This document shows, piece after piece, positions 302 to 56,334 of a stretch of 64,000 nt of DNA. The notes below the pieces were generated by a model. That model worked only from the letters and a program-made list of their open reading frames with translations. It made no database searches and was not told the DNA's origin. Source of the DNA: a virus; the IMG/VR virus record IMGVR_UViG_3300045256_000567; one strand, written 5' to 3'. Position 1 is the first letter of the stretch; each line of letters begins with the position of its first letter. A program made the position numbers and the translations under genes.

Positions 302-1533
302 AACATATGTTTGCAGAAAGCCTACGCTTTTAAGCGTAGGATGAATGCAAACAAACGCTTTGAATATGGTATAATGTTAGCAGGTAGTAATGATAAAGTC
401 TTTCAAATACCGACTGTATCCAACCAAGCCTCAGATAAAGGATTTAGAAAAAACCTTGTTTCTGTGTCGTCAACTGTACAATACTGCTTTGGAACAAAGA
501 AGGGAATTGTACAAAAACTACAAAAAGTCTATCACCTACTATGAACAAGATAAACAACTACCCAAAATAAAAACAGAGCGTCCAGAATACAAGAATGTAA
601 ATGCACAGGTTCTTCAGGATGTGCTGAAAAGGGTAGACAAAGCCTACCAAGGGTTTTTTAGGCGTATTAAAACGGGTGAAACACCTGGTTTTCCAAGGTT
701 CAAAGGTGAAAATAGGTACGATAGTTTCACCTTTCCTCAAGCAAGCTTGACAGGAATCAAGATTCAAGAAGGCAAAAACAGAGTTTTGGTTCATAGAATT
801 GGTTCTATAAAATGCAAGTTTCATAGACCGCTTAAAGGTCAAATAAAGACAGCTTCTATAAAAAGGGATGGTGATGAATGGTATGTCATTTTCACCTGTA
901 TCACAGAACCAAAGAAACTTCCTGAAAACCAAGATGCAGTTGGAATAGACCTTGGCACTAATCCAAACTTCCTAACCACCTCTAACAGTGAAATGGTTCC
1001 TGCTCCTAGGTATTTCAAGAATTCTGAAGATAGGCTTGCCAAAGCACAGAAAATAGTTTCAAAAAGAAAACCTGGTAGCAACAGAAGGAACAAGGCTAAG
1101 AAATTGGTTGCTAAAATCCACAAGAAAATAGCAAACCAAAGAAAGGATTTTCATCACAAGGTAGCAAAAGACTTGGTGAATAAATATGGAACCATAGTAC
1201 ACGAAGACCTAGATATAAAACAACTCGCCCAAACTAGAACAGCTAAAGGTGTCCTAGATGCAGGTTGGGCGCAATTCCTAGCAATACTTGCCTACAAAGC
1301 GGAAGAAGCTGGTAGTCAAGTAATAAAAGTAGATCCAAAATACACAAGCCAAGATTGTCCCGTTTGCGGTAACCGAGAAAAACATCCGCTTTGGGTACGT
1401 ACCTATACCTGCGCTAAATGCAACACAACCCTTCATCGGGATATTGCAGCAGCACAAAATATCTTGGCTAAGGCTCGGACGGAGCCTTCGCTAAATGCGA
1501 GAAGCCCAATTCTTTAGAATTGGGAGTCGTCAC
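302..1533 (+). mobile_element. IS200/IS605-family tnpB-only (IS1341-like) element, copy 1
   Basis: TTAC (298-301), 15 nt, AAAG, then LE hairpin CCTACGCTTTTAAGCGTAGG (321-340). RE is GAAG, hairpin CCCAATTCTTTAGAATTGGG (1505-1524), AGTCG, TCAC (1533). Same architecture as IS608 ends. Confidence 0.92.
390..1517 (+). CDS. tnpB: RNA-guided endonuclease TnpB (copy 1)
   Basis: N-terminal YRLYPT; RuvC motifs GIDLG, VHEDL, HRDIAAAQN; CPVC/CAKC zinc finger. Confidence 0.96.
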   Translation: MIKSFKYRLYPTKPQIKDLEKTLFLCRQLYNTALEQRRELYKNYKKSITYYEQDKQLPKIKTERPEYKNVNAQVLQDVLKRVDKAYQGFFRRIKTGETPGFPRFKGENRYDSFTFPQASLTGIKIQEGKNRVLVHRIGSIKCKFHRPLKGQIKTASIKRDGDEWYVIFTCITEPKKLPENQDAVGIDLGTNPNFLTTSNSEMVPAPRYFKNSEDRLAKAQKIVSKRKPGSNRRNKAKKLVAKIHKKIANQRKDFHHKVAKDLVNKYGTIVHEDLDIKQLAQTRTAKGVLDAGWAQFLAILAYKAEEAGSQVIKVDPKYTSQDCPVCGNREKHPLWVRTYTCAKCNTTLHRDIAAAQNILAKARTEPSLNARSPIL

Positions 1534-1574
1534 AATAGGTTTTTAGAAAGAGCATTTTTTAAGGTTTAAATCGT

Positions 1575-11738: not shown

Positions 11739-11790
11739 ACATATATAATAACATCAAATAAATGTTTTGGGAAGACCCCCCCTAATTTAC

Positions 11791-12033
11791 AGAACAGTTT
11801 GCAGAAAGCCTACACCTAAAGGTGTAGGATGAATGCAAAAATTGAAATTCTATGGTATAATAAACTTGTGCAAAAGAAGCACACCAAATCCTACAAAGCT
11901 GAAAATGCTGGTAGGTACTTGAATTATAAGATTCAAGGTAATCATCGGGAAAATAAGAAAATACCGATAATGGCTTGGACGGAGCCTTCGTTAATTACGA
12001 GAAGCCCAATTCTTTAGAATTGGGAGTCGTCAC
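11791..12033 (+). mobile_element. Non-coding mini-element M3 (LE, promoter, omegaRNA, RE)
   Basis: TTAC at 11787-11790, LE hairpin CCTACACCTAAAGGTGTAGG, RE ending TCAC at 12033. Confidence 0.9.
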
Positions 12034-20333: not shown

Positions 20334-20440
20334 GTGACGACTCCCAATTCTTTAGAATTGGGAGTTGTCACTTCATATACAAGAAATTTAGTTGCATTCA
20401 TCCTACGCATAAAGGCGTAGGTTTTCTGCAAATCAATGTT
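20334..20440 (-). mobile_element. Minimal 107-bp LE+RE element M4 (RE palindrome P3 at 20334-20371)
   Basis: TTAT at 20444-20441, LE hairpin CCTACGCCTTTATGCGTAGG, palindromic RE ending GTCGTCAC at 20334. Confidence 0.88.
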
Positions 20441-20454
20441 ATAATAAAAACAAG

Positions 20455-28475: not shown

Positions 28476-29703
28476 GTGACGACTCCCAATTCTAAAGAAT
28501 TGGGCTTCTCGTAATTAACGAAGGCTCCGTCCAAGCCTTAGCCAAGATATTTTGTGCCGCTGCAATATCCCGATGAAGGGTTGTATTGCATTTTGCACAG
28601 GTATAGGTACGTATCCAAAGAGGATGCTTTTCTCGATTACCGCAAACAGGACAGTCTTGGCTTGTGTATTTTGGGTCTACTTTTATTACTTGCCTACCAG
28701 CTTCTTCCGCTTTGTAGGCAAGTATTGCTAGGAATTGCGCCCAACCTGCATCTAGGACACCTTTAGCTGTTCTAGTTTGGGCGAGTTGTTTTATATCTAG
28801 GTCTTCGTGTACTATGGTTCCATATTTATTCACCAAGTCTTTTGCTACCTTGTGATGAAAATCCTTTCTTTGGTTTGCTATTTTCTTGTGGATTTTAGCA
28901 ACCAGTCTTTTAGCTTTGTTCCTTCTGTTGCTACCAGGTTTTCTTTTTGAAACTATTTTCTGTGCTTTGGAGAGTGTTTTTTCATACTTCTTGAAATACC
29001 TAGGAGCAGGAACCATTTCACTGTCAGAGGTGGTTAGGAAGTTTGGGTTAGTACCAAGGTCTATTCCAACTGCATCTTGGTTTACAGGAAGTTTTTTTGG
29101 TTCTGTGATACAGGTGAAAATTATATACCATTCATCATTCTCCCTTTTTATAGAAGCTGTCTTTATTTGACCTTCAAGCGGTCTGTGAAACTTGCATTTG
29201 ATAGAACCAATCTTATGCACCAAAACTCTGTTTTTACCTTCTTGAATCTTGATTCCTGTTACGTTTGCTTGAGGAAAAGTAAAGCTGTCATATCTTCCTT
29301 CGCCTTTGAACCTTGGATATCCTGGTGTTTCACCTTTTTTGATACGCCTAAAAAACCCTTGGTAGGCTTTGTCTACCCTTTTCAATACATCCTGAAGAAC
29401 CTGTGCATTTACATTCTTGTATTCTGGACGCTCTTCCTTCAAACTAGGTAGTTGGTTAGCTTGTTCATAGTAACCAATGCTTTTCTTGTGGGTTTTGTAT
29501 AATTCCTTTCTTTTTTCCAAAGCAGTATTGTACAGTTGACGACACAGAAACAAGGTTTTCTCTAAATCCTTGATCTGAGGCTTGGTTGGATACAGACGGT
29601 ATTTGAAGGACTTGATCATTACTAAACTATATTGTATCATATTAATAGTACGCGTTTGCATTCATCCTACACCTAAAGGTGTGGGTTTTCTGCAAACTGT
29701 TCT
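28476..29703 (-). mobile_element. IS200/IS605-family tnpB-only element, copy 2
   Basis: TTAT at 29707-29704, LE hairpin, tnpB, RE ending TCAC at 28476. Confidence 0.92.
28492..29619 (-). CDS. tnpB: TnpB (copy 2)
   Basis: Same motifs as copy 1; start set to MIKSF. Confidence 0.96.
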   Translation of the reverse strand: MIKSFKYRLYPTKPQIKDLEKTLFLCRQLYNTALEKRKELYKTHKKSIGYYEQANQLPSLKEERPEYKNVNAQVLQDVLKRVDKAYQGFFRRIKKGETPGYPRFKGEGRYDSFTFPQANVTGIKIQEGKNRVLVHKIGSIKCKFHRPLEGQIKTASIKRENDEWYIIFTCITEPKKLPVNQDAVGIDLGTNPNFLTTSDSEMVPAPRYFKKYEKTLSKAQKIVSKRKPGSNRRNKAKRLVAKIHKKIANQRKDFHHKVAKDLVNKYGTIVHEDLDIKQLAQTRTAKGVLDAGWAQFLAILAYKAEEAGRQVIKVDPKYTSQDCPVCGNREKHPLWIRTYTCAKCNTTLHRDIAAAQNILAKAWTEPSLITRSPIL

Positions 29704-49704: not shown

Positions 49705-50103
49705 TCAAATAAAAACATCTTCTCCTAATATTTTTACGCCATTTGGAGAAATAGAGCAATCTGAAATTTTATTTGGGTCTGGATATATAAGAATATTCTT
49801 AAGATAAATTATATCGTCCATATCAGATGTTATTTTTGCGGCGAAATAATATTTTTTAAGATTGAAGAATAAAACAAAAACATAAAAGTTTGGTTTTGGT
49901 GTTAATACATCATTTGCTATTAATTGAACTTCTGCGTTACCATAATTGTTTGTATGAACGGTCTGTACTGTAGTAGGCAAATAAATTCTTCTATTATCTT
50001 GCACAAAATATACATTTTGTGGGTATGGATATACTTCTACCCTAGCATTTTCAATAGGTCTTGGAAATAGACTAGATGTTTCTATTTTTACAATTTTTAA
50101 CAT
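49705..50103 (-). CDS. Probable tail/baseplate-associated protein
   Basis: TNNYGNAEVQL prealbumin-like pattern. Confidence 0.55.
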   Translation of the reverse strand: MLKIVKIETSSLFPRPIENARVEVYPYPQNVYFVQDNRRIYLPTTVQTVHTNNYGNAEVQLIANDVLTPKPNFYVFVLFFNLKKYYFAAKITSDMDDIIYLKNILIYPDPNKISDCSISPNGVKILGEDVFI

Positions 50104-50744
50104 AGCCTATCTGTACTAGAGAATATTAATTCTGCTGCGTTTGTATTTGCAGGTATGTTAGAAACTTTTACTAATTTACTAAAATTTAATTCGGGAACAG
50201 AAGCTATATAATCGTAGGATCTATTTAAGTTTATTTCAAAATATCCACTAGAGTCGGTTATTGTTGAAGTAGTCATAGAACTATATGGAGAATTATCTGT
50301 ATAAGTAAGAGTATTTGCTACAGTAAAAGATAAAACTTTATCACTTAGCGGATTTCCTAAAGCATCATAAATATTTCCATAAATTTTTACTAACGAAGGA
50401 TTGACGAAATAATTTCCATAATGAATAAATTTGCTATCTTCTGAAATACCATCAGATATTTTTATATCTAATATAGATGGTTTTGGTAAAACAGACGAGG
50501 GAATTTCTACTATATAATAAAATTTTCCAACTTCAAAATCATTTAAAAATACACTATGTTGATATGTTGTGGAGTTTGGTGAAGAAGATGTACTCCATTT
50601 GTTTTGTATCAAATTAAAGTACACATATAAATTGTTTGTATAAATAAAAATAGTTAAAGTCAAATCATTAGTATTGTTTTTTCTAGCTAGAAAAGTTAAT
50701 TTTTCTCCAAATTTAAAATATTCTTTTATATATAGGTTGACCAT
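50097..50744 (-). CDS. Probable tail/baseplate-associated protein
   Basis: IYGNIYDALGNPL...TDSSGYFEI pattern; ATG 7 nt after an LE-junction TATAAT. Confidence 0.6.
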   Translation of the reverse strand: MVNLYIKEYFKFGEKLTFLARKNNTNDLTLTIFIYTNNLYVYFNLIQNKWSTSSSPNSTTYQHSVFLNDFEVGKFYYIVEIPSSVLPKPSILDIKISDGISEDSKFIHYGNYFVNPSLVKIYGNIYDALGNPLSDKVLSFTVANTLTYTDNSPYSSMTTSTITDSSGYFEINLNRSYDYIASVPELNFSKLVKVSNIPANTNAAELIFSSTDRLC

Positions 50745-50751
50745 TTAATTT

Positions 50752-50780
50752 ATTATAGCACGTTTGCAGAAAACCTACGA
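50752..50780 (-). promoter_or_regulatory. Half LE forming a TG-c-TATAAT promoter; also the guide region of tnpB copy 3
   Basis: TTAT-AGCACGTTTGCAGAAAACCTACGA directly abutting the RE at 50781. Confidence 0.75.
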
Positions 50781-51950
50781 GTGACGACTCCCAATTCTAA
50801 AGAATTGGGCTTCTCGCAAGAAGCGAAGGCTCCGTCCGAGCCTTAGCCAAGATATTTTGTGCCGCTGCAATATCCCGATGAAGGGTTGTATTGCATTTGG
50901 CGCAGGTATAGGTACGTATCCAAAGTGGGTGTTTTTCTCTGTTACCACAAACAGGACAATCTTGGCTTGTGTATTTTGGGTCTACTTTTATTACTTGCCT
51001 ACCAGCTTCCTCCGCTTTGTAGGCAAGTATTGCTAGGAACTGTGCCCAACCTGCATCTAGGATACCTTTAGCTGTTCTAGTTTGAGCAAGTTGTTTTATA
51101 TCTAGGTCTTCGTGTACTATGGTTCCATATTTATTCACCAAGTCCTTTGCTACCTTGTGATGAAAATCCTTTCTTTGGTTTGCTATTTTTCGATGTACCT
51201 TGGCAACTAGTTTCTTAGCCTTGGTTCTTCTGTTGCTACCAGGTTTTCTTTTTGAAACTATTTGTTGTGCTTTGGCAAGCCTATCTTCAGACTTCTTGAA
51301 ATACCTAGGAGCAGGAACCATTTCACTGTCAGAGGTGGTTAGGAAGTTTGGGTTAGTACCAAGGTCTATTCCAACTGCATCTTGGTTTACAGGAAGTTTT
51401 TTTGGTTCTGTGATACAGGTGAAAATGACATACCATTCATCATTCTCCCTTTTTATAGAAGCTGTCTTTATTTGACCTTCAAGCGGTCTGTGAAACTTGC
51501 ATTTGATAGAACCAATCTTATGAACCAAAACTCTGTTTTTACCTTCTTGAATCTTGATTCCTGTTTTGCTTACTTGAGTAAAGGTGAAGCTGTCATACCT
51601 ATTTTCACCCTTGAATCTTGGGAAACCAGGTGTTTCACCTTTCTTTATACGCCTAAAAAAGCCTTGGTAGGCTTTATCTAACCTTTGTAGCACATCCTGA
51701 AGAACTTGACTATGTATATTCTTGTATTCTGGAAACTCTTCCTTTAGTTTAGGAAGTTGACTATTTTGCTCGTAACGGCTAATGGTCTTTTTGGAACTTT
51801 TGTACACGTCACGTCTTTTTTCCAAAGCAGTATTGTACAATTGACGACACAGAAACAAGGTTTTCTCTAAATCCTTGATCTGAGGCTTGGTTGGATACAG
51901 TCGGTACTTGAAAGACTTGATCATTGCTGACCTTTATTATACCATATTCA
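50781..51950 (-). mobile_element. tnpB element copy 3: intact RE, no canonical LE
   Basis: RE ends at 50781; upstream TGAATATGGTATAAT promoter as in copy 1; only an LE hairpin arm remains, at 52081-52093. Confidence 0.8.
50797..51924 (-). CDS. tnpB: TnpB (copy 3)
   Basis: All RuvC and zinc-finger motifs intact. Confidence 0.96.
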   Translation of the reverse strand: MIKSFKYRLYPTKPQIKDLEKTLFLCRQLYNTALEKRRDVYKSSKKTISRYEQNSQLPKLKEEFPEYKNIHSQVLQDVLQRLDKAYQGFFRRIKKGETPGFPRFKGENRYDSFTFTQVSKTGIKIQEGKNRVLVHKIGSIKCKFHRPLEGQIKTASIKRENDEWYVIFTCITEPKKLPVNQDAVGIDLGTNPNFLTTSDSEMVPAPRYFKKSEDRLAKAQQIVSKRKPGSNRRTKAKKLVAKVHRKIANQRKDFHHKVAKDLVNKYGTIVHEDLDIKQLAQTRTAKGILDAGWAQFLAILAYKAEEAGRQVIKVDPKYTSQDCPVCGNREKHPLWIRTYTCAKCNTTLHRDIAAAQNILAKARTEPSLLARSPIL

Positions 51951-52093
51951 GGAATGTCACACTATTCAATCGCTTGTACATTATACCAAAAATTTATTAC
52001 CATTGTATTATGTGAGGGAGTCCATGTATCCCCGCTTTGAAAAGCGGGGAATTATAGCTCCCCCACACCCCCTCAATTTTTTAAAGGTGTAGG

Positions 52094-52131
52094 GTTACAA
52101 TTCCCAGTTCTTTAGAACTGGGAATCGTCAC
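52094..52131. repeat. RE palindrome P4 with compensatory substitutions
   Basis: GTTACAATTCCCAGTTCTTTAGAACTGGGAATCGTCAC; supplies the TGA of 52128..55253. Confidence 0.85.
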
Positions 52132-55100
52132 GGGTTTGGATGCAAAACAAGCACATAAATTTCATTGCTTATTGAATAGGGAAGGTTTAGCATTCTATAA
52201 CTTTGCGATGGCGTGTCAATTATAAGTTGATAAGGAATATATAAATTTTGTATAGAAGTATCTAAAATTCTTAGATTATAACAATAAGAGGTAGAAGTTA
52301 GAAAAACAGGGCGTATAAATTCATATGTACTTGAATCCAAAGGATCGTTTCTAGTATCAAAACCAGAGGATTTATTAATAATTAAGTTTGCGTCGCCATC
52401 TGCATTTAAAGCTATTATGTAATAAGTTTTTCCAGATTCAAATTTATATCCATGCGGGAAAAGTTTTTTATCACTAATAAATAGTGAATTATCGCTATTT
52501 ATATTATAGTTATTAATATCTAAAAGCAATTCATTAATTACGGCATTTTTATTACTTATTAAGTAATTAGTAACATTTAGACTAAAACTTGAAAATTTAT
52601 TTATATAATATTGATCATTAGAAATGACTTCTTCATTGTAAAGAAAATTCTCTATACATATATCTAAATGTTGAGATAAAAAAGAAAAGTAGCAAGGCAA
52701 ATAATAATTAAAATCAAAACTACTGTTTAACAAGTTTTTAAACGAAAAATTGTATGTATATATGAACGTTGCCGGAATTAAATCCTGTAAATCTTGGTTT
52801 TCAGGGTTGATAACATCAATATTAAAAACATATGGTCTAAAAACATGTACGGTACTTCTTGGAGATTTATCGGGGCTAGAAGAAAATTCGGCTAGAGATA
52901 CCCGTCCATTAAAATAGTTTAATATTTGACTAGTTGAGAGGTAATCGTTATTATTTAATTTAATATTTAAATTTAAATTTTTATCTTTAAAAACAATTGG
53001 TAAATACTCAACAAAAATAAAATCAAATACGGGGTAGGATAAAGAGGCATCATTTGTTGCCTGTGTTTTTGAAAAACTTTCACCTTTGAATTTTATTCTT
53101 ACAGAAAGCGGATCGTAAACATATGTGTCCTCGCTTAAGTATGTAGTGTATCCTCCTACGTCAATAAATGAAAAATATTCACTGTTTAATATATAAGGTT
53201 TAATATTGTTATTAACGTAATTAGACAATGGTAAATCTAAAGGAGGTATAAAATCAACTATATTATTATTTATTGATATAATATCAGTTTTTGAAGTAAA
53301 CTCATTATCAGAATTAATATTTGATGGTCCAAAATATGAGAATAATGAAAAAAATCTTGTAGGTGAATATTTGTTGCCATAATTAAATATATCAGAAAGA
53401 AATTGTAAAAACTCATTTAAGGCATTTGAGTTATTTTTTAAGGACACCAATGGAACGTGTGTAAAAACATTACGTACTATTGACAAATCCTGGTGAGATG
53501 GTAGCTGAGTTAAAAACATCATATCTTCAGATTGCCATGATGAGGAAGATACATCAACGCCTGGGTACGTTTGTGTTAAATAATTTAATGTTAAAGAATT
53601 TAAACTAGATATGAAATCATTAAAATTATTAAAATCTGGAATATCCAAAGTAAACTCTCTGGGAGTTTGATCATACGCGGGAACATACGAATATAAAATA
53701 AATCTGTTTGGGTTGTTTTTGTCGTTATTATTCTTATACAATACCACAACCGGTTTGTTGTTACTTGATAGACTTGTCAGATCAGAAAAATAAAAATTGT
53801 TTAAAACCCAAGCCTTTAAATTGCTGTAGGTATTTTTATTAAAATAATATTTTTTATCATTTTGAGCAAACTCATCCTCAACGAAAAGCTTTAGTGCTTT
53901 ATATACAAACAATCTCCCAAAATTTATAGATGGAAGACTTATAGAACCGGAATAAGATCCTAAGCTACTAGAATATGTACCTAAAGAAAGTATACTATTT
54001 ATAGTACTTGTAGAAAAATTACTTATTACATTATATATTGCGGGATAAAAATTATCTAAAAAATTTTTTGCAGTTAGGAAAATTCCCGAGTCTATTTGTG
54101 GATTTAAAAATTCAAATATACCCAATTTATTTAATGGATTTTGGTTATTTATTGTATTAAAAGAATATGTAAAATTTCCCGAAAAAGATAAATAATCTTT
54201 ATCAAAATGAAAGCAAACCTTTACTGGAACATTAGAAGTTTTTACATCAATTGTGCAATAAGTATCATTATTATTAGAAAATACAGCGCCATTATCAGTA
54301 TAAAAATCCTTAAATCCATTTTGTCCGCCTGTATTAAACCCAAAATTATTTACTTCTGGGGAGTATCCGAAAAATTTATTAGTTCCTATTGGTACAGATT
54401 CCATATTTTCAGCCGCAGTAATATTCTTAGAAAAGTTTAATGATGTTAGCGGACCTTCTGGATTTATTTTGTAAAATATTTCTTTCCCCGGAATTAATGA
54501 TAAAAAATAAAAATCATTTAAGTTATTACTATATTTACTATTCTCGTAATAAAAATTACTTATAGAAAAATTATTAATAGTAGTTTCATAAATATTATCT
54601 GAATTTGCTTTATAATTGCCGTCGTAGGTAAAAGGTAAGTATAAACTATATATGTAATATTTTGGATATATATTTTGTCCTATGCTTGGAGATACAAAAT
54701 TATAAGTTGGATCAATAGAATCATTTCCATATACAACAACAAAAATATCTATAGTAAGTATTCCTGCAAAAGAAAAACCCACATTAAACAAGTTTGTATT
54801 GTAAGTACTATCAAAAGAGCTTTCTGCCACGCCTATGGATTTATTTATATCTTGAATATTATAATTAATAGAAAAGCCGTTGTAGTAATTGTCTACAGGA
54901 TGATTATCCGGCAATTTGTCAAGTATTAAATTAACTAAACTTAAATCTACACCGGTATTACTGGGATCAATAAAAATGTACTTATTATTAATTTCATCAA
55001 AAATGGCAAATTTAGGAAGAACTTTTTCTTTAGTTAAATTGTTTAATAAAAAAGAAGAAACAACTTGCTTTAAAGTACTTTTTGTAGTTATATCAACAAA

Positions 55101-55253
55101 ACCCTTTCTTTTCCATGTCGGGGATTTTATATAATAAACATCTGGATAGGTATGTATTTTTATTGCTTCCCTATCAGGAAAAACAAAAGAAGAATTACCT
55201 ATGATATCTGGTGATGTGTATTCATTAATATCTGAACAACCTAAAGTTCTCAT
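52128..55253 (-). CDS. Large probable virion structural protein
   Basis: ~1041 aa, N/S/F-rich; true start MRTLG lies 7 nt after an LE-junction TATAAT. Confidence 0.75.
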   Translation of the reverse strand: MRTLGCSDINEYTSPDIIGNSSFVFPDREAIKIHTYPDVYYIKSPTWKRKGFVDITTKSTLKQVVSSFLLNNLTKEKVLPKFAIFDEINNKYIFIDPSNTGVDLSLVNLILDKLPDNHPVDNYYNGFSINYNIQDINKSIGVAESSFDSTYNTNLFNVGFSFAGILTIDIFVVVYGNDSIDPTYNFVSPSIGQNIYPKYYIYSLYLPFTYDGNYKANSDNIYETTINNFSISNFYYENSKYSNNLNDFYFLSLIPGKEIFYKINPEGPLTSLNFSKNITAAENMESVPIGTNKFFGYSPEVNNFGFNTGGQNGFKDFYTDNGAVFSNNNDTYCTIDVKTSNVPVKVCFHFDKDYLSFSGNFTYSFNTINNQNPLNKLGIFEFLNPQIDSGIFLTAKNFLDNFYPAIYNVISNFSTSTINSILSLGTYSSSLGSYSGSISLPSINFGRLFVYKALKLFVEDEFAQNDKKYYFNKNTYSNLKAWVLNNFYFSDLTSLSSNNKPVVVLYKNNNDKNNPNRFILYSYVPAYDQTPREFTLDIPDFNNFNDFISSLNSLTLNYLTQTYPGVDVSSSSWQSEDMMFLTQLPSHQDLSIVRNVFTHVPLVSLKNNSNALNEFLQFLSDIFNYGNKYSPTRFFSLFSYFGPSNINSDNEFTSKTDIISINNNIVDFIPPLDLPLSNYVNNNIKPYILNSEYFSFIDVGGYTTYLSEDTYVYDPLSVRIKFKGESFSKTQATNDASLSYPVFDFIFVEYLPIVFKDKNLNLNIKLNNNDYLSTSQILNYFNGRVSLAEFSSSPDKSPRSTVHVFRPYVFNIDVINPENQDLQDLIPATFIYTYNFSFKNLLNSSFDFNYYLPCYFSFLSQHLDICIENFLYNEEVISNDQYYINKFSSFSLNVTNYLISNKNAVINELLLDINNYNINSDNSLFISDKKLFPHGYKFESGKTYYIIALNADGDANLIINKSSGFDTRNDPLDSSTYEFIRPVFLTSTSYCYNLRILDTSIQNLYIPYQLIIDTPSQSYRMLNLPYSISNEIYVLVLHPNP

Positions 55254-55260
55254 AAAAGAA

Positions 55261-55353
55261 ATTATAGCAAAGTTTGCAGAAAACTTACAAAATATGTTTG
55301 CATTCATCCTACGCTTAAAAGCGTAGGCTTTCTGCAAACATATTTTGTAAAAT
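55261..55353. promoter_or_regulatory. Nested LE cluster acting as a divergent promoter
   Basis: LE head (+) at 55266, full LE (-) from 55346, 18-bp inverted repeat at 55285-55302/55333-55350. Confidence 0.75.
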
Positions 55354-55359
55354 ATTTCT

Positions 55360-56067
55360 ATGGAAAAGAAAATTAAATTAGAACTTAAAAAGAAACTTAT
55401 AGATCTAGTATCTCAATTTGAAGTTTCACGAGATTGGGGTAGGGTTGCTGGAAATTTTGATGGACAAATTTTGTCTTACGGTCCTTTACAGTGGAATATT
55501 GGACAAAGCACTCTTTTTTACGTTTTAAAAAGGATTCCTCAAGAAGTTTTGGAAAAATATCTTGGTTCTGATTTTGTTAAAAGTTTGTCCTCAAATTCTT
55601 CATTGAGGTATTTTGTTTTACACAATATCTTAGGCAAAAATGGAAATGTTCTTCCTGGTTGGTCTAAAAAATTTTCTGATCTAGCTAAAGAGCCTTCTGT
55701 TATATCCGCATTTGTAGTTTCTGCGGAGCCTTACTTTATAAAATCTAACGATTGTTTAAATGAACTTGGTTTTACTACAGAAAGAGGAGCAGCTTTATGT
55801 TTTGACATAACTGTACAAAATGGTGGTCTAAGAAAAGATCATAAAATTTTATATACTAGGTATATAAGCACTAAAAATCCGCAAAATGAGTGGGAAAAAT
55901 ATAAAATACTAGCAAATGTAATTGCTGAATTAGCTAACCCACAGTGGAAAAATGATGTATTAAATAGAAAACTTACCATTGCACTTGGTAAGGGTTCTGT
56001 GCATGGAGTAAATATAGATTTAGAAAAAGATTTTGATATTTCTTATAATCGAACCTGGTACATGTGA
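55360..56067 (+). CDS. Probable endolysin (lysozyme-like)
   Basis: GNFDGQILSYGPLQWNIGQSTL, FDITVQNGG, DVLNRK, G.VHG motifs typical of putative phage/bacterial peptidoglycan hydrolases. Confidence 0.7.
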   Translation: MEKKIKLELKKKLIDLVSQFEVSRDWGRVAGNFDGQILSYGPLQWNIGQSTLFYVLKRIPQEVLEKYLGSDFVKSLSSNSSLRYFVLHNILGKNGNVLPGWSKKFSDLAKEPSVISAFVVSAEPYFIKSNDCLNELGFTTERGAALCFDITVQNGGLRKDHKILYTRYISTKNPQNEWEKYKILANVIAELANPQWKNDVLNRKLTIALGKGSVHGVNIDLEKDFDISYNRTWYM

Positions 56068-56244
56068 CGACACCGCACGTGACGACTCCCAATTCTAAAG
56101 AATTGGGCTTCTCGTAATTAACGAAGGCTCCGTCCAAGCCATTATCGGTATTTTCTTATTTTCCCGATGATTACCTTGAATCTTATAATTCAAGTACCTA
56201 CCAGCATTTTCAGCTTTGTAGGATTTGGTGTGCTTCTTTTGCAC
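56059..56244 (-). ncRNA. Stand-alone TnpB omegaRNA 2 (scaffold to 56079 plus guide GTGCGGTGTCGTCACATGTA)
   Basis: 56079-56256 is the reverse complement of 11856-12033; driven by TG-c-TATAAT. Confidence 0.75.
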
Positions 56245-56250
56245 AAGTTT

Positions 56251-56334
56251 ATTATAGCACAGTTTGCAGAAAGCCTACTCCTAAAATCACAGGCTTTCTG
56301 CAAACTTGTATTGTAAGAACATATAGTGTATACT
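56251..56334. promoter_or_regulatory. Back-to-back LE pair forming a divergent promoter
   Basis: TTAT-AGCACAGTTTGCAGAAAGCCT...AGGCTTTCTGCAAACTTGTATT-GTAA; rightward TTGTAT-N17-TATACT. Confidence 0.72.

What the first reader, a model, noticed from the sequence alone, without database searches (positions are those of the whole stretch)
50752..50800. Guide of TnpB copy 3 is complementary to the LE/promoter family itself
Seen: the RE abuts a half LE, so the guide is TCGTAGGTTTTCTGCAAACG. Guide positions 2-18 match 20416-20432 exactly, and LEs at 309-328 and 55321-55340 match with few mismatches. The bases at the TAM position there are TAAAG/TAAAA, not TTAY, and copy 3 has the most divergent TAM-reading region. 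Inference: either a harmless nested insertion, or an RNP aimed at many LE-derived promoters (global regulation, copy-number control, or attack on LE-bearing rival phages).
Basis: partly seen in the sequence, partly recalled or inferred. Interest (0 to 1): 0.75.

Follow-up and report, generated by a model that had tools for sequence, protein, structure and literature searches.

The report
TnpB element nested in another element's hairpin
A phage-borne RNA-guided nuclease gene (TnpB copy 3) sits inside the hairpin loop of a second transposon-derived mini-element, so its guide RNA is simply one arm of that hairpin; this is an ordinary nested insertion, not a nuclease aimed at the phage's own promoters.

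Summary
The right end (RE) of TnpB copy 3 stops at 50781 on the minus strand. The next 20 nt (50780->50761) belong to the repeated left-end (LE)/promoter family. They match 20416-20432 at guide positions 2-18, and match 308-327 and 55321-55340 with 3 mismatches.

- **Copy 3 has its own complete left end.** It is a second type ("LE-B"), shared with IS copies in Thermus phages T72, TSP4, phiLo and YS40_Isch. The element is a canonical 1,300-bp unit, 50781-52080.
- **The other half of the split hairpin lies on the far side.** It is at 52082-52093, an exact 12-mer of the family's inner stem and loop. It ends in TTAA, where 10 LE-B relatives carry TTAT, TTAG or TTAC.
- **The critical part of the guide covers the variable part of the hairpin.** Guide positions 1-7 fall on the inner stem. 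No site in the window combines TTAN with fewer than 3 mismatches in the first 12 positions.

The best reading is a nested insertion into the loop of an ~76-nt mini-element that forms a terminator-promoter cassette. The guide would then serve canonical TnpB homing or retention against the uninterrupted allele. Family-wide regulation or attack is unsupported here.

Another reader (e1-5792413) reports a 19-nt identical site outside this window, which I could not check. Note e1-5792415 proposed the same nesting earlier.

The parts
50761..50780 (-). Predicted 20-nt guide of the copy-3 omegaRNA. It is the distal arm (reverse complement of an LE-A left arm) of the split hairpin, and covers about -36 to -17 of the downstream gene's promoter.
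   Evidence: It starts right after the conserved RE end.
50752..50760 (-). Extended -10 box (TGCTATAAT), 7 nt before the ATG at 50744. On the + strand it reads as the TTAT target plus the first bases of the LE-A end.
   Evidence: The leaderless '-10 next to ORF' pattern in Deinococcus-Thermus is described in PMC12340547. The simple two-hexamer scan did not call it.
50097..50744 (-). Downstream phage gene (phrog_31677, homologue of phiYS40 gene 165).
50781..52080 (-). IS200/IS605-type, TnpB-only element 'copy 3', 1,300 bp, running from its LE-B left end to its RE.
   Evidence: Boundaries come from comparison with T72, TSP4, phiLo and YS40_Isch copies, which are 1,250-1,283 bp when full length.
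50797..51924 (-). tnpB copy 3 (375 aa). The RuvC D/E/D residues and the zinc-finger cysteines are present.
   Evidence: Pfam HTH_OrfB_IS605, OrfB_IS605 and Cas12f1-like_TNB. Alignments to ISDra2 TnpB and to the paralogues.
50781..50865 (-). 3' part of the omegaRNA scaffold: three stem-loops ending in GGAGTCGTCAC.
   Evidence: The fold has z = -4.8 against shuffles. The 13-sequence consensus has 9 of 20 pairs with compensatory changes. No Rfam family matches.
51925..52080 (-). LE-B left end of copy 3: a G-rich box, a TATAAT, a GC-rich stem-loop, then the tnpB promoter.
   Evidence: The same architecture occurs in 10 copies from T72, TSP4, phiLo (7 copies) and YS40_Isch. It is absent from phiYS40.
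52081..52084 (-). TTAA at the transposon-adjacent (TAM/target) position of copy 3.
   Evidence: The 10 LE-B relatives carry TTAG (5), TTAT (3) or TTAC (2) at the same distance from the G-rich box.
52082..52093 (-). Proximal remnant of the split hairpin: inner stem plus loop (CCTACACCTTTA).
   Evidence: It is an exact 12-mer shared with the LE-A hairpin at 11817-11828. All hits with up to 1 mismatch lie in LE-A hairpins: 6 found against 0.30 expected.
52094..52131 (.). Degenerate RE-type palindrome. It is the right end of the host mini-element and overlaps the stop codon of the 52128-55337 ORF, so it is terminator-like.
20334..20446 (+). Intact reference mini-element with the same layout: RE palindrome, inverted LE-A hairpin, extended -10, gene. 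It contains the best guide match, at 20415-20434.
55262..55345 (.). Half LE-A (+) abutting a full inverted LE-A hairpin. It holds two guide-like sites (55271-55290 minus, 55321-55340 plus), neither with TTAN in register.
309..352 (+). LE-A hairpin of tnpB copy 1. The guide-like site at 308-327(-) has mismatches at positions 1, 8 and 20, and AAAA at the TAM position.
11797..11840 (+). LE-A hairpin of the 240-nt mini-element. On the minus strand it reads TTAG followed by a guide-like arm with mismatches at positions 1, 2 and 8.
56262..56305 (.). Symmetrical double LE-A arm. On the minus strand it reads TTAG followed by a guide-like arm with mismatches at positions 1, 2 and 8.

Best explanation
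**What it is.** Copy 3 is a complete, non-autonomous IS200/IS605-type element of 1,300 bp on the minus strand. It comprises an LE-B left end, tnpB, the omegaRNA scaffold and the RE.

**Where it sits.** It transposed into the single-stranded loop of the left-end hairpin of a pre-existing ~76-nt mini-element, 3' of a TTAA. That mini-element (an LE-A hairpin plus an RE palindrome) serves as the terminator-promoter cassette between the ~1,040-aa gene and the phrog_31677 gene.

**Why the guide looks like the LE family.** A TnpB guide is whatever 16-20 nt follow the right end. Here that is the distal hairpin arm, so the guide necessarily resembles every other LE-A copy.

**What the RNP would do (inferred).** The TnpB looks catalytically intact. 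By canonical TnpB rules its RNP would cut only duplex DNA reading TTAN followed by the guide sequence. That sequence is the uninterrupted allele of this same mini-element, found in a co-infecting or sibling genome, or left after excision. Repair from a copy-3-bearing genome would then restore the insertion (retention, homing or gene drive).
- Its own site is protected because TCAC replaces TTAN.
- The other LE copies are protected by a wrong TAM, mismatches in the first 12 guide positions, or both.

**Shown versus inferred.** The nesting, the boundaries, the TTAN rule for relatives, the intact catalytic residues and the lack of good targets in the window are shown. Expression of the omegaRNA, the actual TAM of copy 3 and homing are inferred.
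For: **Distinct, complete left end.** The copy-3 left end is shared with 10 IS copies in Thermus phages. Full-length relatives measure 1,250-1,283 bp against 1,300 bp here.

**Target motif.** Those 10 relatives have TTAG, TTAT or TTAC six nt before the G-rich box. Copy 3 has TTAA.

**Both flanks rebuild a hairpin.**
- The left flank is an exact 12-mer found otherwise only in LE-A hairpins.
- The right flank is the other arm.
- In-silico excision restores a CCTAC...GTAGG stem next to an RE palindrome, an extended -10 box and an ATG. This is the same order as the intact cassette at 20334-20446.

**Guide start is well defined.** The RE end and omegaRNA stems are conserved with compensatory changes.

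**Nuclease looks active.** The RuvC D/E/D residues and the zinc finger are intact.

**No good target in the window.** A systematic scan found no TTAN site with fewer than 3 mismatches in guide positions 1-16.

**LE-A is a genuine IS end.**
- Its conserved outer part and variable inner stem recur in an archaeal MAG, a CPR bacterium and a Flammeovirgaceae MAG. In the last, a tnpB homologue lies downstream.
- The motif family is absent from phiYS40.

**Published rules.**
- The guide is about 16 nt of flanking DNA, and duplex cleavage needs a TAM (PMC8612924).
- TAM contacts are essential, and double mismatches in positions 1-12 abolish cleavage (PMC10097598).
- TnpB drives homing to vacant sites and gene drive in multicopy replicons (abstracts of 10.1101/2023.11.20.567912 and 10.1101/2025.02.20.638934).
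Against: - The proximal half of the host hairpin is incomplete. Only the inner stem and loop remain, and the outer arm is replaced by the RE palindrome.
- The two inner-stem halves do not pair perfectly (CACC type on one side, CGA type on the other). A later deletion, mutation or recombination must therefore be assumed.
- TTAA is not seen among the 10 relatives.
- No tnpA was found in the 64 kb, so mobilisation needs a transposase supplied in trans.
- No copy-3-free allele was found in any collection.
- Aa 36-80 is unusually divergent, so the copy-3 TAM could differ from TTAN.
- An unchecked note (e1-5792413) reports a 19-nt identical site upstream of the capsid operon, outside this window. 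Its TAM context is unknown.
Confidence: 0.8

Rival explanations
1. Family-wide duplex targeting. The copy-3 RNP binds or cuts many LE-derived promoters in the phage or in rival phages. It would act as a global regulator, a copy-number controller or a weapon.
For: - Eleven further LE-family sites in the window match the guide with 1-4 mismatches in its first 16 nt.
- The TAM-reading segment of copy 3 is the most divergent of the three paralogues.
- Some TnpBs accept weak TAMs (abstract of PMC11043419).
- An unchecked note reports a 19-nt identity at a late-operon promoter outside the window.
Against: - No site in the window combines TTAN with fewer than 3 mismatches in guide positions 1-12.
- Guide positions 1-7 lie on the variable inner stem, while the conserved motif lies in the more tolerant distal part.
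- The RuvC site is intact, so binding a perfect self-site with a TAM would cut the phage's own genome. This is unlike the nuclease-dead TldR repressors.
- The exact 17-mer gave only 11 context-free chance hits in IMG/VR. The LE-A left end gave no hit in GenBank phage records. None of the first 120 hits of the promoter-form pattern in metagenomes had hairpin context. No LE-bearing rival phage is therefore known.
Confidence: 0.06
2. Single-strand interference. The guide is complementary to the top (transposing) strand of LE-A ends. On single-stranded DNA, TnpB needs no TAM. The RNP could therefore bind or cut LE-A transposition or replication intermediates, so that an LE-B element suppresses LE-A elements.
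For: - ISDra2 TnpB cleaves matching ssDNA without a TAM (PMC8612924).
- The strand paired by the guide is the LE-A top strand in every copy.
Against: - Every LE-A copy in the window has at least one mismatch in the first 12 guide positions.
- The left arm is normally sequestered in the hairpin.
- No tnpA is present in the window to generate such intermediates.
- Nothing suggests selection for this. Nesting alone explains the sequence.
Confidence: 0.04
3. Recombination scar or inert relic. The RE/half-hairpin junction arose by recombination between repeated LE and RE copies rather than by transposition. Alternatively, copy 3 is no longer expressed, so the guide has no activity at all.
For: - The outer proximal arm of the host hairpin is missing and the stems do not pair perfectly.
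- The three tnpB copies are mosaics, about 95% identical in aa 201-375 but 62-78% identical in aa 36-80, which indicates recombination or gene conversion among copies.
- The flank after the copy-1 RE shares an 8-mer with the copy-3 guide.
Against: - The junctions fall exactly at the LE-B and RE boundaries defined by 10 independent relatives, with a TTAN-type motif in place.
- The ORF, the catalytic residues, the promoter-like extended -10 box and the omegaRNA stems are all intact.
Confidence: 0.1

Closest known systems
IS200/IS605 TnpB-omegaRNA elements (ISDra2, IS608 type), which act as homing or retention nucleases
   Same: - Same protein domains and a 3' omegaRNA scaffold that ends at the RE.
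- The guide is the DNA flanking the RE.
- The target motif lies 5' of the LE (TTAC in IS608, TTAN here).
- The element's own site is protected because the RE ends in TCAC.
   Different: - No tnpA nearby.
- It resides in a lytic-type phiYS40-like phage.
- Its left end (LE-B) is known only from Thermus-phage copies.
- Its insertion site is the hairpin loop of another IS-derived element, so the guide is itself repeated DNA.
TnpB gene drive in multicopy plasmids (10.1101/2025.02.20.638934)
   Same: An IS nested in another mobile replicon. TnpB cutting of IS-free copies would bias inheritance. A replicating or co-infecting phage genome pool is analogous.
   Different: Not demonstrated for phages. 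Here the drive target would be a promoter cassette allele.
TldR, the TnpB-like nuclease-dead repressors
   Same: These would be the precedent for a TnpB-family RNP that binds promoters.
   Different: TldRs have lost RuvC activity and are not flanked by transposon ends. Copy 3 keeps the D/E/D residues and both ends, so it is not a TldR.
IS200/IS605-derived miniature elements (PATE/MITE-like).
   Same: The host of copy 3 is an ~76-nt LE-hairpin plus RE-palindrome unit without coding capacity, like 20334-20446. Longer ~240-nt units lie at 11790-12033 and 56079-56310.
   Different: Here they consistently sit between genes, with the RE palindrome at the upstream gene's 3' end. The LE/target junction forms the -10 box of the next gene.

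Membership tests
IS200/IS605-family TnpB element | TnpB protein with HTH_OrfB_IS605, OrfB_IS605 (RuvC) and zinc-ribbon TNB domains | tested here: met
   Pfam E-values of 6e-14, 4e-26 and 5e-25. Alignment to ISDra2 TnpB structures 8exa and 8h1j at E = 4e-57.
IS200/IS605-family TnpB element | Intact RuvC catalytic triad (ISDra2 D191, E278, D361; the numbers for E278 and D361 are from my own knowledge) and CxxC...CxxC zinc finger | tested here: met
   The D of GIDLG, the E of HEDL, the D of HRD and four cysteines are conserved in copies 1-3 and align to the ISDra2 positions.
IS200/IS605-family TnpB element | Structured omegaRNA scaffold that overlaps the 3' end of tnpB, ends at the RE boundary and is followed by a flank-derived guide | tested here: met
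   Thirteen sequences share stems, 9 of 20 pairs have compensatory changes, and all end in GGAGTCGTCA(C/T) with unrelated flanks. Expression was not tested. No Rfam model matches.
IS200/IS605-family TnpB element | Conserved target/TAM motif immediately 5' of the left end | tested here: met
   LE-B relatives carry TTAG (5), TTAT (3) or TTAC (2), and copy 3 carries TTAA. LE-A copies carry TTAT or TTAC.
IS200/IS605-family TnpB element | Y1 (HUH) TnpA transposase in the element (autonomous form) | tested here: not met
   tblastn of the YS40_Isch TnpA against the window gave nothing below E = 2. Copy 3 is therefore a TnpB-only, non-autonomous element. The rest of the genome was not searched.
IS200/IS605-family TnpB element | RNA-guided, TAM-dependent DNA cleavage by the RNP | not testable with these tools
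   This needs a TAM-library and cleavage assay.
TldR (nuclease-dead TnpB-derived repressor) | Loss of RuvC catalytic residues and loss of transposon ends | tested here: not met
   The catalytic residues and both ends are present.
IS605-derived miniature element (host of the insertion) | LE hairpin and RE hairpin of the family in one orientation, no ORF, flanked by the target motif | tested here: met
   After in-silico removal of 50781-52080, the unit reads: TTAT, LE-A left arm, loop, inner stem, RE palindrome. The LE right outer arm is missing, so the unit is degenerate.

The most novel reading that the evidence does not exclude
The copy-3 RNP is not only a homing device. It may also act on LE-derived late promoters of its own or related phages. 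One route would be the reported 19-nt identical site upstream of the protease-capsid operon, outside this window, if that site carries a usable TAM. The other would be TAM-independent recognition of single-stranded LE-A top strands. Either would give RNA-guided control of promoters, or of competing LE-A elements, by a transposon nuclease that a phage has retained.
Probability: 0.08. Interest if true: 0.8.

Novelty: new member of a known kind. Interest (0 to 1): 0.3.

Why it matters
A guide that matches a repeated promoter family looks like evidence of regulation. This case shows it can arise purely because one IS605-type element landed in the hairpin loop of another.

It also gives a clean example of two left-end types (LE-A and LE-B) that share one tnpB/omegaRNA/RE module inside a phiYS40-like phage.

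It predicts a concrete homing target: TTAA followed by the 20-nt arm. That prediction could be used to test whether TnpB drives IS inheritance during phage co-infection.

The wider picture of phage promoters and terminators built from IS ends is more interesting, but it belongs to other findings of this scan.

Tried and rejected
**Access to the rest of the genome and to read data**
- No whole genome is held for this window.
- The window's own protein is not on record for contig look-up.

**Search for a copy-3-free allele**
- The neighbouring gene had no relative in IMG/VR.
- Its only close relative (66% identity, L036) and phiYS40 have a different upstream gene, with no IS or motif. They are uninformative about the empty site.

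**Exact-pattern scans**
- RE 24-mer in IMG/VR: 0 hits.
- Guide plus -10 27-mer in metagenomes: 0 hits.
- Guide 17-mer in IMG/VR: 11 hits, all without hairpin or promoter context, so they are chance.

**Other searches**
- The LE-A left end has no blastn match in GenBank phages.
- Rfam has no family for the omegaRNA.

**Ideas rejected**
- That the motif is an ancestral phiYS40-type promoter consensus: phiYS40 lacks it.
- That LE-B elements generally insert into hairpin loops: flanks of the 10 relatives show no consistent split hairpin.
- That copy 3 has a truncated left end, which was my first impression: it has a complete LE-B.

Full report
**Setting.** The window has 29% G+C and is part of a large phage related to Thermus phages phiYS40 and TMA. 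The portal protein is 50% identical, and the genes downstream of the finding are syntenic with phiYS40 genes 165-168. It carries three tnpB genes with the full Pfam architecture:
- copy 1 at 390-1517 (+)
- copy 2 at 28492-29619 (-)
- copy 3 at 50797-51924 (-)

No Y1 transposase (tnpA) was detected in the 64 kb.

**The observation.** Aligning the three copies and all solo right ends shows that similarity stops exactly after GGAGTCGTCAC. The same terminus closes the elements of Thermus phages T72, TSP4, phiLo and YS40_Isch.

Thirteen sequences share three 3' stem-loops, and 9 of the 20 predicted pairs are maintained by changes on both sides. The copy-3 region folds well below shuffled controls (z = -4.8). 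In ISDra2 the omegaRNA matches the tnpB 3' end and RE, and its last ~16 nt are flank-derived (PMC8612924).

The 20-mer has four other matches with up to 3 mismatches, against none in 100 shuffles. Positions 2-18 equal 20416-20432. The bases at the TAM position of the matches are TAAAG or TAAAA.

Copy 3 seemed to lack the left-end hairpin of copies 1 and 2, which I call LE-A. LE-A consists of TTAY, 5-7 nt, and a long imperfect hairpin followed by an extended -10 box.

Comparison with relatives shows that copy 3 has a different but complete left end, LE-B. LE-B consists of a G-rich box, TATAAT, a GC-rich stem-loop and a C-rich box. It is shared with 10 IS copies in T72, TSP4, phiLo (7 copies) and YS40_Isch. 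Full-length relatives measure 1,250-1,283 bp, and copy 3 measures 1,300 bp at 50781-52080.

Six nucleotides before the G-rich box the relatives read TTAG (5), TTAT (3) or TTAC (2). Copy 3 reads TTAA at 52084->52081. The transposon-adjacent motif of this lineage is therefore TTAN, and copy 3 fits it.

**The nesting.** Immediately 5' of that TTAA lies a 12-mer at 52093->52082. It is identical to the inner stem plus loop of the LE-A hairpin at 11817-11828. All its matches with up to 1 mismatch are LE-A hairpins: 6 found against 0.30 expected. Immediately 3' of the RE lies the guide, which is the reverse complement of an LE-A left arm.

Removing 50781-52080 in silico gives this order on the minus strand:
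1. RE-type palindrome (52131->52094, overlapping the stop codon of the upstream ORF)
2. a CCTAC...GTAGG stem with a TTTAA loop
3. the conserved distal arm
4. TGCTATAAT
5. 7 nt, then the ATG at 50744

The intact cassette at 20334-20446 has the same order. Copy 3 therefore sits in the loop of the LE-A hairpin of a small, degenerate mini-element, in the opposite orientation and 3' of a TTAN motif. That is what peel-and-paste insertion into single-stranded DNA predicts. Note e1-5792415, from an overlapping window, reached the same conclusion. I derived it independently and added the LE-B evidence, the TAM evidence and the 12-mer statistics.

Two caveats apply. The outer proximal arm of the host hairpin is missing. 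The two inner-stem halves are of different subtypes, so some later decay or recombination must be assumed.

**Is LE-A a real transposon end or a phage promoter?** Several results bear on this.
- phiYS40 lacks the motif family.
- A gapped pattern for the two conserved outer segments found the same architecture elsewhere: conserved outer parts around a co-varying inner stem-loop, often preceded by TTAT. It occurs in a Woesearchaeota MAG (three contigs), a Curtissbacteria genome and a Flammeovirgaceae MAG. In the last, a tnpB homologue lies ~480 nt downstream.
- In the window, every LE-A copy with the conserved distal motif faces outward towards a -10-like hexamer, most of them a short distance before a start codon. 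The hexamer is formed by the TTAY target plus the first LE bases.
- A -10 element placed directly before the ORF is the leaderless pattern common in Deinococcus-Thermus (PMC12340547).

LE-A is therefore a bona fide IS end that here doubles as promoter DNA. This agrees with notes e1-5792403 and e1-5792414.

**Can the copy-3 RNP act on the family?** I scanned both strands for sites with up to 5 mismatches in guide positions 1-16.

| Site | TAM position | Mismatches in positions 1-16 |
|---|---|---|
| 50780(-), own site | TCAC | none |
| 20415(+) | AAAG | 1 |
| 55321(+) and 327(-) | AAAA | 1, 8 |
| 55290(-) | TATT | 2, 6 |
| 11815(-) and 56280(-) | TTAG | 1, 2, 8 |

For ISDra2 TnpB, alanine changes at TAM contacts Y52, K76, Q80 and T123 abolish cleavage, and those at S56, F77 and N124 reduce it. 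Double mismatches within positions 1-12 also abolish cleavage (PMC10097598). A thermophilic archaeal TnpB accepts weaker TAMs, but is then very specific for its target (abstract of PMC11043419).

The guide's TAM-proximal positions 1-7 also fall on the inner stem. That is the part that varies between copies and between phyla. The conserved motif occupies positions 8-19. This is the opposite of what a family-wide guide would need.

Copy 3 keeps the RuvC triad and zinc finger. It is therefore not a TldR-like repressor, and a perfect TAM-bearing self-site would be cut. No LE-bearing rival phage was found in IMG/VR, in GenBank phages or in the metagenome sample.

**The TAM-reading region.** Differences among the three paralogues are concentrated in aa 36-80.

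| Pair | Differences in aa 36-80 |
|---|---|
| copy 1 vs copy 3 | 17 of 45 |
| copy 2 vs copy 3 | 16 of 45 |
| copy 1 vs copy 2 | 10 of 45 |

By comparison there are 0 of 35 differences in aa 1-35 and about 5% in aa 201-375. A second small cluster lies at aa 114-121. These segments align to the ISDra2 TAM contacts.

At seven of the positions where copy 3 differs from both other copies, it shares the state of T72 or TSP4 (or both), including 39, 47, 71 and 72. Part of the divergence therefore reflects copy 3 keeping the LE-B-lineage state while copies 1 and 2 changed. The only direct evidence on the copy-3 TAM is its own TTAA.

**Most likely mechanism.** The sequence is explained by nesting (confidence about 0.85-0.9). 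The function of the guide is inferred to be the canonical one, at about 0.6 given nesting. The RNP would cut the uninterrupted allele, TTAA followed by the arm, in sibling or co-infecting genomes or after excision. Recombinational repair would then copy the element back. This has been shown for IS605-family elements and for multicopy plasmids (abstracts seen).

A remaining unconventional possibility is TAM-independent action on single-stranded LE-A top strands, to which the guide is complementary (PMC8612924).

The main open item is the 19-nt identical site upstream of the protease-capsid operon that note e1-5792413 places outside this window. I could not read it.

**Verdict.** The exciting interpretation is not supported in the available 64 kb. 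The finding is a well-documented nested insertion of one IS605-type element into another's hairpin loop.

Noticed in passing
L038, L040, L041 (Woesearchaeota MAG), L039 (Curtissbacteria), L042:5015-6640 (Flammeovirgaceae MAG): The LE-A architecture recurs across phyla: conserved outer segments around a co-varying inner stem-loop, often preceded by TTAT. In L042 it lies ~480 nt upstream of a tnpB homologue. It looks like a widespread, possibly undescribed, left-end type of a TnpB element lineage.
   Followed up: partly
window 1534-1553 versus 50761-50780: The flank after the copy-1 RE shares the 8-mer TAGGTTTT and about 12 of 18 positions with the copy-3 guide. The copy-1 left flank (about 284-301) contains a TTTGCA..GAAA remnant. 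Copy 1 may also sit in a decayed LE-A hairpin.
   Followed up: partly
tnpB copies 1-3, aa 36-80 and 114-121: Amino-acid differences among the three paralogues cluster in the REC/WED segment that aligns to the ISDra2 TAM contacts. They differ at 22-38% of residues there, against 0% in aa 1-35 and about 5% in aa 201-375. This suggests mosaic recombination or diversifying selection on TAM or heteroduplex reading.
   Followed up: partly
window 56064-56107 (-): The RE of the mini-element at 56079 is followed 7 nt later by a second GTCGTCAC. This looks like a remnant of an earlier right end at the same site, which would mean repeated insertion at one place.
   Followed up: no
window 11790-12033 (+) and 56079-56310 (-): Two ~240-nt mini-elements share the segment from a TATAAT box through a shortened omegaRNA-like scaffold to the RE (the compared stretches are identical). 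Their upstream LE parts and their guides differ. They look like stand-alone omegaRNA genes.
   Followed up: no
window 52128-55337 (-): This ORF is 1,069 aa as listed, or about 1,040 aa from the likely leaderless ATG near 55250. It has no Pfam or PHROG match. It replaces the phiYS40 gene-164 homologue at this position, is driven by a half-LE promoter, and ends inside an RE-type palindrome.
   Followed up: partly
LE-A hairpin loops at 326-331, 11814-11823, 20407-20415 and 29671-29680: The loops occur in both orientations relative to the arms (TTTAG in some copies, TAAAG in others). Only some copies therefore present TTAG next to the distal arm. This may reflect loop inversion.
   Followed up: no
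L013/L017 (Thermus phage YS40_Isch, about 91.6-91.9 kb): An unannotated 261-bp LE-B mini-element, with an internal tnpB fragment and an RE, lies in an intergenic region of YS40_Isch. phiYS40 itself has no LE-B copy.
   Followed up: partly
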